DNA from: a phage | Length of the DNA: 64,000 nucleotides | NCBI GenBank assembly: GCA_014435945.1 | Contig: GCA_014435945.1_4088.1 | Direction: 5' to 3' (one strand) | In this document: positions 5,841 to 51,421 of the stretch, in pieces | Layout: each line of letters begins with the position of its first letter | Position numbering within the stretch: the first letter of the stretch is position 1 | The notes under the pieces: generated by a model | What the model saw: only the letters and a program-made list of their open reading frames with translations | What the model was told of the DNA's origin: nothing | The model's database searches: none | Translations under genes and position numbers: made by a program

Positions 5841-5842
5841 CT

Positions 5843-5986
5843 ATGCCAGTACGTAACAGTACTTCACGCTTTACGCTTCAACAGAAAGCAGATCTTTTGA
5901 ATATGGCAAACAAAGATTCTAATTTTCACTATCTAGTACTCGGTGGTTCAGTTGAAAAGATTGACCTACGTGAGTGTATGAAATAA
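5843..5986 (+). CDS. small hypothetical protein (47 aa)
   Basis: Below ORF-track cutoff; ATG preceded by TAAGGAG. Confidence 0.35.
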   Translation: MPVRNSTSRFTLQQKADLLNMANKDSNFHYLVLGGSVEKIDLRECMK

Positions 5987-6002
5987 CAAAAAGGGGACTA
6001 AA

Positions 6003-6173
6003 ATGAGTCTACGTGAATCATGGGAACAATTTAAAGAAGAGATTGGTTATCGTGGTGTCAAAATCGAACCAATCAATCGCACCGAAAGCATCAAAGCTAG
6101 TACTAATGGCACTACCTATGATCGTTATGATGAAAAGTATGGTTTACATTCTAAACCAAAGGATACTGAGTAA
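6003..6173 (+). CDS. small hypothetical protein (56 aa)
   Basis: ATG preceded by AAAGGGGA; fills gap between genes. Confidence 0.3.
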   Translation: MSLRESWEQFKEEIGYRGVKIEPINRTESIKASTNGTTYDRYDEKYGLHSKPKDTE

Positions 6174-6316
6174 TGGTGTATACTAATATTTTTACTGGTA
6201 TTATGCGTAAGTTTGTTAATGGTACTGGATATGTATCCAATGACAACGGTAGAACATGGGTAAAAAATAATACGTCCGAATCTTTAGTGAAAAGTCTTCC
6301 GTATTATAAAGCTTGA
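6173..6316 (+). CDS. small hypothetical protein (47 aa)
   Basis: TAATG overlap with upstream small ORF; stop inside -35 of next promoter. Confidence 0.25.
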   Translation: MVYTNIFTGIMRKFVNGTGYVSNDNGRTWVKNNTSESLVKSLPYYKA

Positions 6317-6341
6317 CACATGAAAATGGAGTATGTATAAT
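6313..6341 (+). promoter_or_regulatory. sigma70-like promoter
   Basis: TTGACA, 17-bp spacer, TATAAT. Confidence 0.55.
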
Positions 6342-6373
6342 ACTCCTATATTAATCAAATGAGGATATACGAA

Positions 6374-29364: not shown

Positions 29365-30330
29365 GTGAAAAAGCTTGATTTAAATGCAATTTCTGAAGAA
29401 GTACTGGATGAGTGTTTTGCTAGTGAAGAAGTCAACGTATTAGAGGCTCTTGATTCCGTCGAAGAAGAAGAACATGACGGTCACAAGTTTGAGAAACCAA
29501 AAACAGGTATCAGCTTAACTCGCCCTAAAGGGATAACGAATGAAATGCTCATCCAAGCAGTGCGTGATGGCATAGACGTTGAAAAGAACATTGACCTTTT
29601 GGTTCGCTACAACTATCCAATGGTAGTAAGTGTTGCACGTAAGTGTACATGTTTTATCCCATTTGAAGATAAGATTTCTTATGGTGTTGAAGGTTTAATG
29701 CGAGCAATTCATACGTTCGACACTACCAAAAATGTTAAGTTCATTACATATGCAACAACAACTGTGTACATGACAATCTATAACGAAAGTGCAGATGCTA
29801 ATTATCTAGTGCATTTCCCACGTTATATGAGTGTTAATAACATTTATGTGAAACGCTGTGTAGAAGAGTATCAAATGAAACATGGTAAATACCCAACTCC
29901 TGAGATGGTGTCAAAAGAGACTGGTATTGAGATTCAACACGTTAAGAATTGTCTAACTTACAATAACACTTATGTAGCATTGAATATGAAAATGAGTAAT
30001 GATTCAGAAAGTACATTATCTGACATTGTTACTTCAGTTGAACCTGATTACAACTTAGGCGTAGAAACTGTCAGTACCCCACTGGTACAAAGTATTGCAG
30101 AAATGATGAGTAACCTATCTGCCAAAGACCGTGAATTGATTGAACGTGTACATGGTATTGGTTCTTATTCTGAACCAGAAACGCTACGAGAAATCATTGA
30201 GAGTGGTTTTGAAGATGAGAAGGGTAAGGTCATGACTGCTCGTTCTTCATTGCACCGTAAGTACTCTGAAGCAATGGAACGACTGCGTAAGATGGTTAAG
30301 ACAAAAGGTTATGAGTTCGAAGATTTTTAA
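29365..30330 (+). CDS. sigma-70 family RNA polymerase sigma factor (phage-encoded)
   Basis: Region-2-like YGVEGLMRAIHTFDTTKNVKFITYATTTVYMTI; region-4-like C-terminal helix-turn-helix; GTG start after AGGAG. Confidence 0.65.
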   Translation: MKKLDLNAISEEVLDECFASEEVNVLEALDSVEEEEHDGHKFEKPKTGISLTRPKGITNEMLIQAVRDGIDVEKNIDLLVRYNYPMVVSVARKCTCFIPFEDKISYGVEGLMRAIHTFDTTKNVKFITYATTTVYMTIYNESADANYLVHFPRYMSVNNIYVKRCVEEYQMKHGKYPTPEMVSKETGIEIQHVKNCLTYNNTYVALNMKMSNDSESTLSDIVTSVEPDYNLGVETVSTPLVQSIAEMMSNLSAKDRELIERVHGIGSYSEPETLREIIESGFEDEKGKVMTARSSLHRKYSEAMERLRKMVKTKGYEFEDF

Positions 30331-30337
30331 GATTAAA

Positions 30338-30364
30338 GGGTTGACTTCTGTCAGCCCTTTTTTT
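30338..30364 (+). terminator. intrinsic terminator (cassette variant without -10)
   Basis: GGGTTGAC-TTCT-GTCAGCCC followed by TTTTTTT. Confidence 0.7.
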
Positions 30365-30898
30365 ATGGGACAAATTTATTAATGGTGATACAATGATCTA
30401 TGTACAATCACAATGACAGTACTGGTACTGACAATCTTCCCCTACTTCACTTGAAAATGTAAAGGATAGATGAGCTTTTCATTGTAGCGAACAGCAAAAG
30501 AAACCCGTTAGATGTGGGCATAGTTTGAACCCCTCACGGCAATGCGGCTGTATAAAGAACCACGTTAGGATAGCTGGTGGTTCCTCGATAGACATATAAG
30601 GATAACACCTTACGAATTATCTAAGGGAGAGTTATCGAATTTTGTACAGGAAAGTTGCGTCCAAAATTTGAGTACTCACATTAAGTATTTGATTGCATAG
30701 ATACTTAATGAAGATACACTATGTTTAAAAGTGTAGACCGTCATATGAAACTGAAGTAGAGAGAAACAGGATGACCCGCTTTCGCACTCATTATGAGTAA
30801 TCTTCAATGCAATAGCTCTGATACCATCAGCGTCAAATTCCCCTCCATGTGGGGGGAAGAAAAATCCCTTCCTCAAATCCCGTCAATATTAAAAGTCC

Positions 30899-30927
30899 TT
30901 GACAGTTATGATTCATTCGCGTAGAAT
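30899..30927 (+). promoter_or_regulatory. sigma70-like promoter
   Basis: TTGACA, 17 bp, TAGAAT. Confidence 0.5.
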
Positions 30928-30991
30928 ACGTAGTATTAGAAGCGAACAGACATCTCGAAGAGATGGATGATTAACCACTAAGGAATATCTA

Positions 30992-31201
30992 ATGAATTCA
31001 GTAATCTTTTTAATTATTGCTCTTTCACCACAATCTGGTGTACAAATCACCCCAATGAATTCAATGAATCAATGCATTGCAGTACGTGACAGTACGTATG
31101 AACAAGTAAACAGCGTTTCACTTAGAACAGTTGGTGAAGAATTAATGTGGTGTTACAATAGCAATACTAAAGAGAAACTAATTGTTGGACAAACTAAATG
31201 A
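30992..31201 (+). CDS. small secreted/membrane protein
   Basis: 69 aa; hydrophobic N-terminus. Confidence 0.45.
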   Translation: MNSVIFLIIALSPQSGVQITPMNSMNQCIAVRDSTYEQVNSVSLRTVGEELMWCYNSNTKEKLIVGQTK

Positions 31202-31425
31202 GTTATGGTGTTCGTTTTGAGATTCGTTCTATTGTTATCAATGATGAGAAACAAGCATCGTTGGATGGCGATATACGAGAACTATATCTATCATGTATCC
31301 GTGCAAAATCTGAAGCAGATGCATTATCACAAATGATTGGTTTTAATTTCTTTCATGGATACTATTTGGTACGAGTTATCGAAGTTAAAAAAGTCACTTT
31401 TGAGTGTCTTGCAGGAGAAATATAA
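31198..31425 (+). CDS. hypothetical protein
   Basis: 75 aa; ATGA overlap. Confidence 0.45.
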   Translation: MSYGVRFEIRSIVINDEKQASLDGDIRELYLSCIRAKSEADALSQMIGFNFFHGYYLVRVIEVKKVTFECLAGEI

Positions 31426-31426
31426 A

Positions 31427-32221
31427 ATGAGCACTATAGATGAATTGATTCGCCGGAATTCAAAATACTACGACCCATCAGAAATTGTTGGCAACATTAC
31501 TAAATCTGAGTTCGGCCCAAATACTCGAAAACTCATTCATGTAATGTCACGTGATGGCTTTAAATGTGATTGTTGTGGTGAATCCAATGTGGTATTCACT
31601 TTACATAAACACAGTACTAAAGACCGTTATAAATTCAGACCTTATGTACTTAAAGGGAAACGCCTTGTACGCATGACGTTAGACCATAATGTACTGGACT
31701 GTCTTCAGGGCGGTAATGATAAAGAGAACATGACTGCACTGTGTGAAGATTGTAACGCATTACGCCAGCATAAGTTCGCTGAGTACAGTGAGTTTAAACA
31801 CTGGTATCATAACGCTGATCGTTCTATCGAGCCTGACGTTAACTACTGCTTTATTGAGTATATTAAGAATGCTAAAGATACATACATTCTTAAATCAATG
31901 TCACCTATTACAGTGTTCCCTGAGAATCTATTCAGTACTATGCAGCGTGATTTTAAACGTGGTATCATGAATGCATTCAAACACTTAGACAAAGGTATCA
32001 AGCACTTTGAGGTGCAATGCTTAAATGAAGGAATGAATCGTTTAGTACAAATTTACATGAAATCATTTATAGGTGTTGACACCGCACGTCTACCAGTATA
32101 TAATTACTTCATTGAAAGCGAAGAAGGTGAATCACTTCGTGATTATGGTGAAAGATTTAATAATAAAGTTTTCACTGCAATCGCAAACGAGATTCATTAC
32201 TATAAACCGTATGTAATTTAA
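31427..32221 (+). CDS. HNH endonuclease domain protein
   Basis: CDCCGES...LDHNVLDCLQGGNDKENMTALCEDCNALRQH (zinc-knuckle HNH motif); ATG 31427 after AGGAG. Confidence 0.7.
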   Translation: MSTIDELIRRNSKYYDPSEIVGNITKSEFGPNTRKLIHVMSRDGFKCDCCGESNVVFTLHKHSTKDRYKFRPYVLKGKRLVRMTLDHNVLDCLQGGNDKENMTALCEDCNALRQHKFAEYSEFKHWYHNADRSIEPDVNYCFIEYIKNAKDTYILKSMSPITVFPENLFSTMQRDFKRGIMNAFKHLDKGIKHFEVQCLNEGMNRLVQIYMKSFIGVDTARLPVYNYFIESEEGESLRDYGERFNNKVFTAIANEIHYYKPYVI

Positions 32222-38273: not shown

Positions 38274-38465
38274 ATGTTGATTTATCAATGTGATAACATT
38301 CGTGTTATGCAGCATCCCTACTTACAAATCTTTGATGTGCAGCAGTATATGGAAGGTGATGACCCAAGAACCTATGGTCGTAAGTATGATTACTTCACTG
38401 TAAAGCAGTGTCGTAACATCAAAGAAGTACGACAATTAGTTCAAGAACTTCAAAATAAAGGTTGA
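38274..38465 (+). CDS. hypothetical protein
   Basis: ATG after GAGGA RBS; stop codon inside downstream TTGACT. Confidence 0.45.
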   Translation: MLIYQCDNIRVMQHPYLQIFDVQQYMEGDDPRTYGRKYDYFTVKQCRNIKEVRQLVQELQNKG

Positions 38466-42045: not shown

Positions 42046-42051
42046 TTAAAA

Positions 42052-42085
42052 GGGGTTGACTTCAGTCAGCCCTTTGTCGTATAAT
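42052..42085 (+). promoter_or_regulatory. terminator-promoter cassette
   Basis: GGGGTTGAC-TTCA-GTCAGCCC, T-run, TATAAT. Confidence 0.65.
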
Positions 42086-45055: not shown

Positions 45056-45062
45056 AAGAAAA

Positions 45063-45095
45063 GGGTTGACTTCGGTCGGCCCTTTTTGCTATAAT
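45063..45095 (+). promoter_or_regulatory. terminator-promoter cassette
   Basis: GGGTTGAC-TTCG-GTCGGCCC, TTTTT, GC, TATAAT. Confidence 0.7.
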
Positions 45096-49265: not shown

Positions 49266-49358
49266 ATGGATTAAACAATGAAGAAGTGTATCATTCTTTG
49301 TTCTAATCACCATCGCATGGTACATTCTGGTAGACTATGTTTGATTGAAAGAAAAAAA

Positions 49359-49391
49359 GGGTTGACTTCAGTCGGCCCTTTTTGCTATAAT
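49359..49391 (+). promoter_or_regulatory. terminator-promoter cassette
   Basis: GGGTTGAC-TTCA-GTCGGCCC, TTTTT, GC, TATAAT. Confidence 0.7.
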
Positions 49392-49935: not shown

Positions 49936-49941
49936 AGGAAA

Positions 49942-49974
49942 GGGTTGACTTCGGTCAGCCCTTTTTGCTATAAT
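49942..49974 (+). promoter_or_regulatory. terminator-promoter cassette
   Basis: GGGTTGAC-TTCG-GTCAGCCC, TTTTT, GC, TATAAT. Confidence 0.7.
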
Positions 49975-51378: not shown

Positions 51379-51388
51379 CAATACAAAA

Positions 51389-51421
51389 GGGTTGACTTCG
51401 GTCAGCCCTTTTTGCTATAAT
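51389..51421 (+). promoter_or_regulatory. terminator-promoter cassette
   Basis: GGGTTGAC-TTCG-GTCAGCCC, TTTTT, GC, TATAAT. Confidence 0.7.

What the first reader, a model, noticed from the sequence alone, without database searches (positions are those of the whole stretch)
30365..30898. A 530-bp non-coding, GC-enriched island downstream of the sigma-factor gene
This is the longest gene-free interval in the window. It lies between the terminator of the sigma-70-like gene and the next promoter (30899..30927). It is GC-richer than flanking DNA and contains inverted repeats (for example CCCCTCCATGTGGGGGG near 30840). Candidates are a structured RNA or a replication origin/protein-binding region.
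Basis: inference. Interest (0 to 1): 0.55.

Follow-up and report, generated by a model that had tools for sequence, protein, structure and literature searches.

The report
New large structured jumbo-phage RNA gene
The "empty" 530 bases after the phage sigma-factor gene encode a roughly 490-nucleotide, intricately folded non-coding RNA that matches no described RNA family, is present in 3-5 diverged copies in Rak2-like jumbo phages, and also sits in small mobile anti-phage defence islands of enterobacteria.

Summary
Window 30331-30991 has no conserved reading frame. It is bounded by the sigma-gene terminator and a near-consensus promoter, and it is modestly GC-rich (0.39 against 0.348).

The interval is a gene for a large structured RNA on the + strand. 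It has its own extended -10 promoter (30386-30394) and a core at about 30401-30890.

Forty-three non-redundant homologues support 21 helices, three of them crossing. 85 of 112 pairs change on both sides, and 87.5% of cells are paired against about 40% in slid controls. G-U outnumbers A-C about 3:1.

No Rfam family matches, and I found no description in the literature.

The window is an Asteriusvirus jumbo phage. Such phages carry 3-5 dispersed paralogues, one of them next to the sigma gene even in distant RaK2.

Single copies also lie in integrase-bearing defence islands (Lamassu, retron, PDC-M45) in E. coli, Citrobacter and Serratia.

Function is not shown. My best guess is a stand-alone, trans-acting RNA made early in infection. 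A cis-acting leader is the main rival. An origin of replication is not supported.

Two 3' repeats that mutate in parallel remain unexplained.

The parts
30335..30364 (+). Intrinsic terminator of the phage sigma-factor gene (context). It is one of six copies of the same hairpin motif in the window.
   Evidence: Terminator scan. The motif occurs 6 times against 0 expected.
30366..30394 (+). Promoter of the RNA gene. It has a -35-like TGGGAC(A) at 30366-72, TG at 30386-87 and a -10 TACAAT at 30389-94 (extended -10). The predicted start is about 30400-30402.
   Evidence: Promoter scan. TGnTATAAT, preceded by TGGGAC or TGAAAC, lies at the same place in all phage and island copies. The start site itself is inferred.
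30401..30890 (+). Core of the structured non-coding RNA, about 490 nt. The 5' end is inferred from the promoter. The 3' end is not defined; conservation of the core stops after CGUCAA at 30886.
   Evidence: nhmmer profile hit at 30433-30897. Covariation on 43 sequences. No Rfam match.
30410..30487 (+). 5' domain. It contains helix 30410-16/30479-85, variable hairpin 30417-30, hairpin 30442-69 with the conserved loop GAAAAUGUA, and a 2-bp clamp 30475-76/30486-87 that crosses the first helix.
   Evidence: Compensatory changes: ACAAUGA/UCAUUGU in the window against CUGAAUGA/UCAUUCAG elsewhere. The clamp is paired in 43/43 sequences with three pair types.
30491..30612 (+). Central junction domain. 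It contains helix 30491-95/30547-51, which encloses CCGU/ACGG (30505-08/30536-39) and a variable arm. It also has hairpins 30557-63/30577-83 and 30597-601/30608-12. Invariant single strands join these helices (GCAAAAGAAACCCGUUAG, CACGGCAAUGCGGC, AUAAAG, GAUAGACAUAUAAGG).
   Evidence: Helices 6, 7, 9, 10 and 11 (84-100% paired, double-sided changes). Invariant columns.
30629..30677 (+). Movable hairpin domain (30629-32/30674-77 and 30636-44/30662-70; loop UACAGGAAAGUUGCGUC, consensus UACAAUAUAGAUCCGUC). In other paralogues it sits instead after the ACCCGC hairpin. In the bacterial copies it is present at both sites.
   Evidence: (split nhmmer hits). Helices 12 and 13.
30679..30813 (+). 3' double-pseudoknot domain. 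Hairpin 30679-88/30701-10 has a loop (30692-98) that pairs with 30807-13. It also contains hairpin 30713-18/30731-38 and helix 30752-56/30802-06. Hairpin 30759-63/30779-83 has a loop (30771-75) that pairs with 30740-44. The last element is hairpin 30786-89/30795-98.
   Evidence: Helices 14-20 are 90-100% paired, and almost every pair changes on both sides. Top mutual-information pairs.
30824..30836 (+). Direct repeat R1 (CCAUCAGCGUCAA).
   Evidence: It changes in parallel with R2 in independent lineages. Its partner is unknown.
30838..30861 (+). Hairpin with an invariant GGGGGG run.
   Evidence: Helix 21. The 5' strand varies between C and U, and the G-run never varies.
30874..30886 (+). Direct repeat R2 (CAAAUCCCGUCAA). 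This is the last conserved block of the core.
30899..30972 (+). 3' extension. It holds the near-consensus sigma-70 promoter 30899-30927 for the downstream genes. That promoter overlaps two further hairpins (about 30911-46 and 30949-68) that are conserved after every copy of the RNA.
   Evidence: Promoter scan. Downstream sequences of 63 copies show the second hairpin with six different compensated stems. Whether these hairpins belong to the RNA is not settled.

Best explanation
Shown. The interval is a gene for a large (about 490 nt), highly structured non-coding RNA read from the + strand. It starts at its own extended -10 promoter just after the sigma-gene terminator. The RNA folds into at least 20 helices, with three crossing (pseudoknot) interactions and about 100 invariant nucleotides in loops and junctions. 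It belongs to a family that is not in Rfam. Rak2-like jumbo phages (Asteriusvirus, Mimasvirus, Eneladusvirus, Alcyoneusvirus, a Xanthomonas phage and uncultured relatives) carry 3-5 diverged, dispersed paralogues. Small integrase-bearing defence islands of Enterobacterales carry single copies.

Inferred. The RNA is made by host RNA polymerase as one of the many small early transcription units of this region. It works as a folded RNA in trans, as the RNA part of a ribonucleoprotein, a ribozyme or an RNA-only assembly. It does not work as a DNA site. The two 3' repeats that evolve in concert are most simply read as twin docking or processing sites for a lineage-specific partner. Its presence as the only element common to otherwise unrelated defence islands suggests that it mediates an interaction between these islands and jumbo phages.

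Confidence split. I put about 0.95 on 'real structured RNA of a new family'. I put about 0.4 on 'stand-alone and trans-acting'. The biochemical activity is unknown.
For: Conservation and copy number.
- 62 phage records match, with 3-5 places per genome.
- 40 loci, all on jumbo-phage-sized contigs.

Structure.
- RNAalifold and mutual information agree.
- On 43 sequences that are less than 96% identical, 87.5% of cells are paired. Shuffles give 69.9% and slid registers 38-44%.
- 85 of 112 pairs change on both sides. The covariation score is 0.452 against 0.168, with 0 of 500 shuffles as high.

Strand.
- G-U 342 against A-C 106.
- Every copy has a promoter upstream.

Not coding. Not any Rfam family.

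Stand-alone reading.
- The window region is a string of independent units with strong promoters and terminator-promoter cassettes. The downstream genes have their own 11/12 promoter.
- In 7t3-type copies the RNA is followed by a strong terminator and no ORF, among genes of the opposite strand.
- About half of the paralogue classes carry a terminator-like hairpin plus a U-run inside the 3' part.

Islands.
- E. coli LR-29-1, Citrobacter and Serratia chromosomes.
- Integrases of five kinds.
- Cargo of Lamassu, retron II-A and PDC-M45.
- The E. coli island RNA is 80.6% identical to a copy in Serratia phage BF.
Against: - No expression data exist for any copy. The start is inferred from a promoter match and the 3' end is undefined.
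- Most copies have no terminator between the RNA and the next gene. Each paralogue class keeps its own downstream gene family across genera. That pattern fits a leader at least as well as a stand-alone gene.
- The structure was derived from the same sequences on which it was counted. The sequences are related, so the shuffle control overstates significance. The slid control and the number of pair types are the safer measures.
- Single-sequence folding does not favour the + strand (z -1.9 against -3.1 for the reverse strand).
- No protein partner was identified. Island proteins next to the RNA have no phage homologues.
Confidence: 0.55

Rival explanations
1. Cis-acting leader. The RNA is the 5' part of the transcript of the downstream genes and acts co-transcriptionally on its own unit. 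It might work as put-like processive antitermination, as regulated read-through of the built-in terminator-like hairpin, or by protecting the transcript or licensing translation. Each transcription unit (3-5 per phage, one per island) would therefore need its own copy.
For: - There is no terminator between the RNA and the next gene in most copies. The second downstream hairpin often ends at the AUG.
- Each paralogue class is syntenic with one downstream gene family across genera.
- In the islands the RNA heads same-strand gene arrays, including Lamassu in L246.
- The copy-per-unit logic resembles nutL/nutR and putL/putR (established knowledge).
- A terminator-like hairpin inside the RNA must be read through to make the conserved 3' part.
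Against: - At about 490 nt with ribozyme-like conservation it is 4-7 times larger than any known antitermination or leader RNA.
- The downstream genes are unrelated between classes, so a metabolite-sensing riboswitch is unlikely.
- In the window the downstream genes have their own near-consensus promoter, and the region is full of promoters, so read-through is not needed.
- 7t3-type copies have no downstream ORF.
- Some copies have a terminator-like hairpin before the RNA, which the RNA could not override.
Confidence: 0.25
2. Replication origin that uses an RNA primer. A transcript from a phage-type promoter forms a persistent R-loop, as at T4 oriF/oriG or ColE1 RNA II. The several copies would be the several origins, and the islands would carry one copy so as to be replicated by the phage.
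For: - Several dispersed copies per genome, each with a promoter of the TGAAAC/TGGGAC + TATAAT type. The CBB paper calls this type divergent RpoD-like and finds it mainly before DNA-synthesis genes (PMC5259590).
- The islands have no recognisable replication genes in the stretches seen.
- The RNA has an invariant G-run.
- T4 uses several promoter-dependent origins (established knowledge).
Against: - There is no GC-skew extremum or strand switch at the locus.
- The transcript is not G-rich.
- Conservation follows RNA helices with G-U pairs and pseudoknots over the whole length. This argues for a free folded RNA, not a hybrid with DNA.
- No iterons or AT-rich unwinding element were identified.
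Confidence: 0.07
3. Arms-race RNA. The RNA is a decoy, mimic or antidote in the conflict between jumbo phages and defence islands. The island copy might interfere with or sense a phage function. Alternatively, the phage copies might neutralise an island-encoded system, as pseudo-ToxI RNAs do. This is a special case of trans action.
For: - The RNA is the only element shared by islands that have different integrases and different defence cargo.
- Island and phage copies are up to 80.6% identical.
- The phages keep several diverged versions.
- The island copies carry the phage-type promoter.
Against: - No toxin or effector gene is consistently adjacent.
- The paralogues are syntenic across phage genera, so they are old residents of phage genomes and not recent captures.
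- Only 2 of 5426 complete E. coli genomes carry it.
Confidence: 0.1
4. Not an RNA at all: a small protein-coding gene, a decayed gene remnant, or a chance GC-rich spacer.
For: Some GenBank records annotate 3-5 'hypothetical proteins' across the interval. ORFs of 38-66 aa exist in the window.
Against: No ORF is conserved in position, strand or frame among 43 homologues, and there is no codon periodicity. Well-curated records leave the interval empty. Covariation is pervasive.
Confidence: 0.01

Closest known systems
ROOL and GOLLD RNAs (large 'ornate' RNAs of phages and prophages of Firmicutes and relatives; function unknown; form RNA-only cages, PMC12286853)
   Same: A large (over 400 nt), multi-pseudoknot non-coding RNA carried by phages and integrated elements. 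It has many invariant unpaired nucleotides and no known function.
   Different: - No match to their covariance models.
- The host range is Proteobacteria and the phages are lytic jumbo phages.
- Not next to tRNA genes; the nearest is 12 kb away.
- 3-5 diverged paralogues per genome.
- Oligomerisation is untested.
HK022 put RNAs and lambda nut sites (cis-acting antitermination elements, one per early operon)
   Same: It lies directly downstream of a promoter at the head of transcription units. There is one copy per unit and several per genome.
   Different: It is about 490 nt against about 70 nt. It has a complex tertiary core. Some copies have no downstream gene. The activity is untested.
RNA-primed origins (T4 oriF/oriG, ColE1 RNA II)
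   Same: A promoter plus a transcript of several hundred nucleotides, with several copies per T4-like genome.
   Different: No skew signal. The conservation is of a free RNA fold. No unwinding element was recognised.
HEARO / omega RNAs of IscB, IsrB and TnpB (multi-copy structured RNAs of mobile elements)
   Same: A multi-copy, structured RNA found in mobile DNA. An HNH-type ORF lies two genes downstream in the window.
   Different: - No covariance-model match.
- No adjacent IscB- or TnpB-like gene at any copy.
- The nearby HNH ORF (31337-32221) has only marginal HNH hits (E = 0.02) and is absent from the other copies.
PA5oct ncRNA002 (451-nt abundant transcript of a related Pseudomonas jumbo phage, PMC7318152)
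   Same: A non-coding RNA of similar size in a distant relative of the Rak2 group. It makes up 1-5% of phage reads.
   Different: No sequence similarity, even with all nhmmer filters off. Homology is not supported.

Membership tests
Any Rfam 15 family (including ROOL, GOLLD, OLE, HEARO, raiA, group I and II introns, RNase P, 6S, tmRNA, T-box) | Match to the family covariance model at its gathering score | tested here: not met
   The only hits in the window are tRNAs. At E up to 10 on the locus, on an island copy and on a permuted copy, only short chance hits far below gathering appear.
ROOL / GOLLD-type phage RNAs | Located in phages or prophages | tested here: met
   62 phage records plus integrated islands.
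ROOL / GOLLD-type phage RNAs | Frequent adjacency to tRNA genes | tested here: not met
   The window's tRNAs lie at 14065-18038, 12 kb from the RNA.
ROOL / GOLLD-type phage RNAs | Homo-oligomeric RNA-only assembly | not testable with these tools
   Needs native gels or cryo-EM.
put/nut-type cis antiterminator RNA | Immediately downstream of a promoter, upstream of the genes of the unit | tested here: inconclusive
   True for most copies. But the window's downstream genes have their own promoter, and 7t3-type copies have no downstream ORF.
put/nut-type cis antiterminator RNA | Small element (two stem-loops of about 70 nt, or boxA/boxB) | tested here: not met
   About 490 nt, 21 helices.
put/nut-type cis antiterminator RNA | Makes RNA polymerase terminator-resistant in cis | not testable with these tools
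   Needs transcription assays.
RNA-primed replication origin (T4 oriF/oriG, ColE1) | Compositional or strand-switch signature of an initiation site | tested here: not met
   Cumulative GC skew rises smoothly through 30.4 kb. Genes are on the + strand on both sides. This is a weak test for phages that replicate by recombination.
RNA-primed replication origin (T4 oriF/oriG, ColE1) | Persistent RNA-DNA hybrid and initiation at the site | not testable with these tools
   Needs DRIP-seq, 2D gels or marker-frequency analysis.
HEARO / omega RNA | Adjacent RNA-guided nuclease gene (IscB, IsrB or TnpB) | tested here: not met
   Neighbouring genes differ between copies, and none has such domains.
Riboswitch / T-box-type leader | Consistently upstream of genes of one pathway | tested here: not met
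   At least five unrelated downstream gene families, most without Pfam hits.
Protein-coding gene | Conserved open reading frame with codon-position bias | tested here: not met
PA5oct ncRNA002 family | Detectable sequence homology | tested here: not met
   nhmmer --max gives no hit at E up to 10.

The most novel reading that the evidence does not exclude
The RNA is a new functional RNA class, either a ribozyme or an RNA machine. Through it, small integrase-borne defence islands of Enterobacterales interact with Rak2-like jumbo phages. On this reading the islands are satellite-like elements whose only constant part besides an integrase is a copy of a helper-phage RNA module, which they use to be expressed, replicated or mobilised on infection, or to sabotage the phage. 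The twin co-evolving 3' repeats would be the recognition sites of the lineage-specific partner.
Probability: 0.2. Interest if true: 0.9.

Novelty: new variant of a known kind. Interest (0 to 1): 0.78.

Why it matters
Large, highly structured bacterial and phage RNAs number only about a dozen classes. Each one whose function was solved revealed new biochemistry; examples are RNase P, group I and II introns, tmRNA and the omega RNAs.

This family has the hallmarks of such RNAs: many invariant unpaired nucleotides, nested pseudoknots, and a domain that can be attached at two alternative points. It occurs in cultured E. coli phages (121Q, PBECO4, phAPEC6, BF17) and in a sequenced E. coli strain, so it can be tested directly.

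It may also give a molecular handle on two open questions. One is how Rak2-like jumbo phages organise their early programme. The other is whether enterobacterial defence islands exploit or sense jumbo phages.

It also shows that several GenBank records annotate spurious 'hypothetical proteins' across an RNA gene.

Tried and rejected
- **Rfam.** I scanned at gathering threshold and at E up to 10 on the window copy, an island copy and a permuted copy. Nothing matched.
- **PA5oct ncRNA002 as a transcribed homologue.** Rejected: no similarity.
- **Coding potential.** Rejected.
- **Origin of replication by GC skew.** No signal.
- **Other copies inside the 64-kb window.** None found. The extra BLAST places in the first search were copies of the sigma-gene terminator motif.
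- **Pattern scans of the public collections.** Most of the roughly 300 matches were chance. Only nhmmer-confirmed loci were used.
- **RNAalifold's long-range closing pairs** (30487-89/30881-83, 30587-89/30877-79, 30591-93/30832-34). Dropped: they rest on invariant bases, show A-C in 12 of 43 sequences, and are broken in L207 and RaK2.
- **A switch in which R1 and R2 pair alternately with the strand 5' of R1.** The local R1 hairpin exists, but its register varies, so this is inconclusive.
- **Shared proteins between islands and phages near the RNA.** None found.
- **Plasmids.** No copy.
- **Single-sequence folding as a strand test.** Uninformative.
- **Processive antitermination as the main reading.** Down-weighted once the region turned out to be dense in strong promoters.
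- **Literature.** Searches found no description. The supplement of the 10,006-candidate phage RNA survey is not held, so prior listing there as an unnamed candidate cannot be excluded.

Full report
**1. The observation**

- The window is a low-GC (0.348) phage sequence.
- The sigma-70-family gene ends at 30330 (Pfam regions 2 and 3).
- It is followed by an 11-bp-stem terminator at 30335-30360 plus a T-run.
- The next strong promoter (TTGACA-17-TAGAAT) lies at 30899-30927, and the next ORF starts at 30992.
- The interval has a GC content of 0.39. This is a modest enrichment: about 9% of equal-sized windows reach it.
- Only short ORFs overlap the interval (38, 66 and 43 aa).

**2. Identity of the window, and conservation**

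- The interval is 99% identical to Escherichia phages BF17, WPEC3, Ecwhy_1 and fEgEco12, and about 90-96% identical to 121Q, PBECO4 and phAPEC6. All are Asteriusvirus jumbo phages of 350-385 kb.
- Careful annotations leave it empty; others place 3-5 'hypothetical proteins' on it.
- A core corresponding to about 30440-30897 is also found at roughly 70% identity in many other phages. These include Mimasvirus (CBB, GAP32) and Eneladusvirus (Serratia BF, the Erwinia pEa_SNUABM phages, Yersinia fHe-Yen9-04). They also include Salmonella 7t3/Munch, Klebsiella fENko-Kae01 and Xanthomonas XbC2.
- In these phages the gene neighbourhoods are different, and each genome holds 3-5 places.
- A motif scan of IMG/VR recovered 40 loci, nearly all on contigs over 300 kb. 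This showed dispersed paralogues, for example 121Q at about 90, 193 and 327 kb, and GAP32 at about 35, 99, 262 and 341 kb.
- RaK2 (Alcyoneusvirus) has a much more diverged copy, again directly downstream of its sigma gene.

**3. It is an RNA structure**

- An alignment of six and then 29 copies showed long invariant blocks separated by helices with compensatory changes.
- I collected 66 full-length copies and reduced them to 43 sequences less than 96% identical. I aligned these (A2) and computed APC-corrected mutual information. Almost all top-scoring column pairs are Watson-Crick or G-U pairs with two to five pair types.
- I wrote a structure of 21 helices and 112 pairs, including three crossing interactions, and counted it.
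  - 87.5% of cells are paired, against 69.9% in shuffles and 38-44% when the partner is slid by 1-3 columns.
  - 85 pairs have changes on both sides.
  - 789 cells have double changes, against 244 in shuffles.
  - The covariation score is 0.452 against 0.168, with 0 of 500 shuffles as high.
- The best-supported parts are 98.6-100% paired, and nearly every pair covaries. These parts are:
  - the loop-to-3'-strand pseudoknot 30692-98/30807-13;
  - helices 30752-56/30802-06 and 30759-63/30779-83;
  - the second pseudoknot 30740-44/30771-75;
  - the clamp 30475-76/30486-87;
  - helix 30491-95/30547-51.
- Caveats. The model was derived from these same sequences, and the sequences are related, so the shuffle control is generous. 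The slid control and the count of pair types are the more honest measures, and both are decisive here.
- The first three helices are poorly aligned by MAFFT. They are better seen in the raw sequences: ACAAUGA/UCAUUGU in the window against CUGAAUGA/UCAUUCAG elsewhere.

**4. Strand, ends and coding**

- G-U pairs outnumber A-C 342 to 106 within the model.
- Every copy is preceded by TGnTATAAT with a -35-like TGGGAC or TGAAAC. In the window these are TGGGAC at 30366-71 and TGaTACAAT at 30386-94. The RNA is therefore the + strand, starting near 30401 (inferred).
- Single-sequence folding energies do not discriminate between the strands.
- No ORF is conserved, and there is no codon periodicity.
- The 3' end is undefined. 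Core conservation ends with CGUCAA at 30886.
- Two more hairpins follow in all copies. The second has the form UUGAC-NNNN-loop-NNNN-GGCAA with six different compensated stems, and it often ends at the start codon of the next gene.
- In the window these hairpins overlap the 30899-30927 promoter.

**5. Architecture worth noting**

- (a) A hairpin domain with the loop UACAAUAUAGAUCCGUC sits at 30629-77 in the window. In a 'permuted' paralogue class it sits after the ACCCGC hairpin instead. The bacterial copies have it at both sites. A peripheral docking domain behaves this way.
- (b) The arm at 30512-35 is replaced by a longer insert in some classes.
- (c) About half of the classes have a terminator-like hairpin plus U6-7, with covarying stems, between R1 and the G-run hairpin. 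Several classes have a similar hairpin between the promoter and the RNA.
- (d) Repeats R1 (30824-36) and R2 (30874-86) carry the same substitutions in independent lineages: RaK2, Serratia L207 and L211, and L329/L254. No compensating partner was found. I cannot explain this. A common trans partner, processing sites or gene conversion are all possible.

**6. Comparison with known families**

- Rfam 15 has no match at gathering score. At E up to 10 there are no meaningful matches for the window copy, an island copy or a permuted copy.
- PA5oct, a distant relative, has an abundant 451-nt ncRNA, but it is not homologous.
- Literature searches found no description of this RNA.
- The large survey of candidate phage RNAs could not be checked.

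**7. Bacterial copies**

- The same RNA, with the same type of promoter, occurs in the chromosomes of Citrobacter amalonaticus, three Serratia species and an Enterobacteriaceae MAG. It also occurs in several metagenome contigs and in 2 of 5426 complete E. coli genomes. It is absent from plasmids.
- It always lies in low-GC insertions, close to an integrase. The integrases are four unrelated large serine recombinases or, in E. coli LR-29-1, an IS3-disrupted tyrosine integrase beside ffs.
- The cargo is anti-phage defence:
  - Lamassu LmuABC in L246;
  - a type II-A retron in L335;
  - the candidate system PDC-M45 in E. coli;
  - a CI-like repressor in several islands;
  - in the Serratia fonticola island, only two ParB/RepB-like genes besides the integrase and the RNA.
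- The RNA is the only element common to all of these islands.
- The E. coli island RNA is 80.6% identical to a copy in Serratia phage BF. That is closer than phage paralogues are to each other.
- Proteins next to the RNA in the islands have no phage homologues.
- Satellite-like defence islands carried by jumbo phages are known in Pseudomonas (PMC12595487, PMC12772148). Those islands have other integrases and no reported RNA.

**8. How it most likely works**

Shown: it is a folded RNA with its own promoter.

Evidence for a stand-alone, trans-acting product:

- The window is an early-type region made of many small units. It has eight perfect 12/12 sigma-70 promoters and repeated terminator-promoter cassettes.
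- The genes after the RNA have their own promoter.
- 7t3-type copies are followed by a terminator and no ORF, amid opposite-strand genes.
- Several classes have a built-in terminator-like 3' hairpin.
- No cis-acting RNA of this size or complexity is known.

Evidence for a cis-acting leader:

- Most copies run without a terminator into a class-specific downstream gene family.
- In the islands the RNA heads same-strand arrays.

My weights: trans-acting about 0.4 (including about 0.1 for a decoy or antidote role), cis-acting about 0.25, origin about 0.07. The remainder is unassigned.

An RNA-primed origin has no compositional support. It also fits poorly with the conservation of a free RNA fold.

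**9. Verdict**

It is a previously undescribed family of large, pseudoknotted RNAs. The family is multi-copy in Rak2-like jumbo phages and is shared with mobile defence islands of their hosts. Function remains to be established by experiment.

Noticed in passing
window 30335-30360, 42050-42075, 45060-45085, 49356-49381, 49939-49964, 51386-51411 (weaker copies near 38457, 42832, 44411): One hairpin motif (AAAGGGTTGACTTCnGTCrGCCCTTT plus a T-run) recurs six times on the + strand, against 0 expected. In most copies the TTGACT inside the stem lies 18 nt before a TATAAT, so the motif is a combined terminator-promoter cassette.
   Followed up: partly
window 14065-18038: A tRNA cluster of seven genes. 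It includes three tandem tRNA-Thr(TGT) genes, two of them identical. It also has two roughly 90-nt long-arm tRNAs that ARAGORN calls Ser(ACT) and Met(CAT), which are unusual anticodon and arm combinations.
   Followed up: no
window 29365-30330: The phage sigma factor matches Pfam sigma-70 regions 2 and 3 but not region 4. The RNA genes and other phage promoters use TGGGAC or TGAAAC in place of a normal -35. A copy of the RNA lies directly after the sigma gene in both Asteriusvirus and the distant RaK2.
   Followed up: partly
L341 1627-2259 (Escherichia virus TH47, orthologous locus): In TH47 a roughly 210-aa ORF with a homing-endonuclease-like YxxWxxMxxRC motif (no Pfam hit) is inserted between the RNA's promoter and the RNA. 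The RNA there is a recombinant of the 'permuted' type.
   Followed up: partly
window 30824-30836 and 30874-30886; the same columns in L207, L211, L254, L329, L343: Two direct repeats in the RNA acquire identical substitutions in independent lineages (parallel rather than compensatory covariation). No partner was found.
   Followed up: partly
L021, L048, L137, L005, L156 and others, 60-160 nt after the RNA: Three different RNA paralogue classes are each followed by a member of one family of about 175-aa proteins with no Pfam hit. The RNA plus this gene therefore seems to have duplicated as a module. The 'permuted' class is always followed by a 121-aa family, and another class by an ADP-ribosylglycohydrolase-like gene.
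   Followed up: partly
L342 15888-26684 (E. coli LR-29-1, between ffs and ybaA): A roughly 10.7-kb island with an IS3-disrupted integrase, the RNA, and about 700 nt of further unannotated sequence after it. It also carries the candidate defence system PDC-M45 (DUF488 plus a dual-OB protein, with a DUF4326 gene alongside) and a small serine recombinase.
   Followed up: partly
L211 61-4200 (Serratia fonticola chromosome, beside rof/tilS): A minimal island made only of a large serine recombinase, two ParB/RepB-like genes and the RNA. The adjacent rof gene is duplicated, which may mark the integration site.
   Followed up: no
window 5841-6358 and 14695-15287: Two other stretches of 518 and 593 bp have no ORF of 60 aa on either strand. 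They were not examined, apart from giving no Rfam hit at gathering score.
   Followed up: no
window 31337-32221: An HNH-type homing-endonuclease-like ORF (marginal Pfam HNH hits) lies two small genes downstream of the RNA. According to PMC13070987, the sigma gene and a neighbouring HNH gene are present or absent between close relatives.
   Followed up: no
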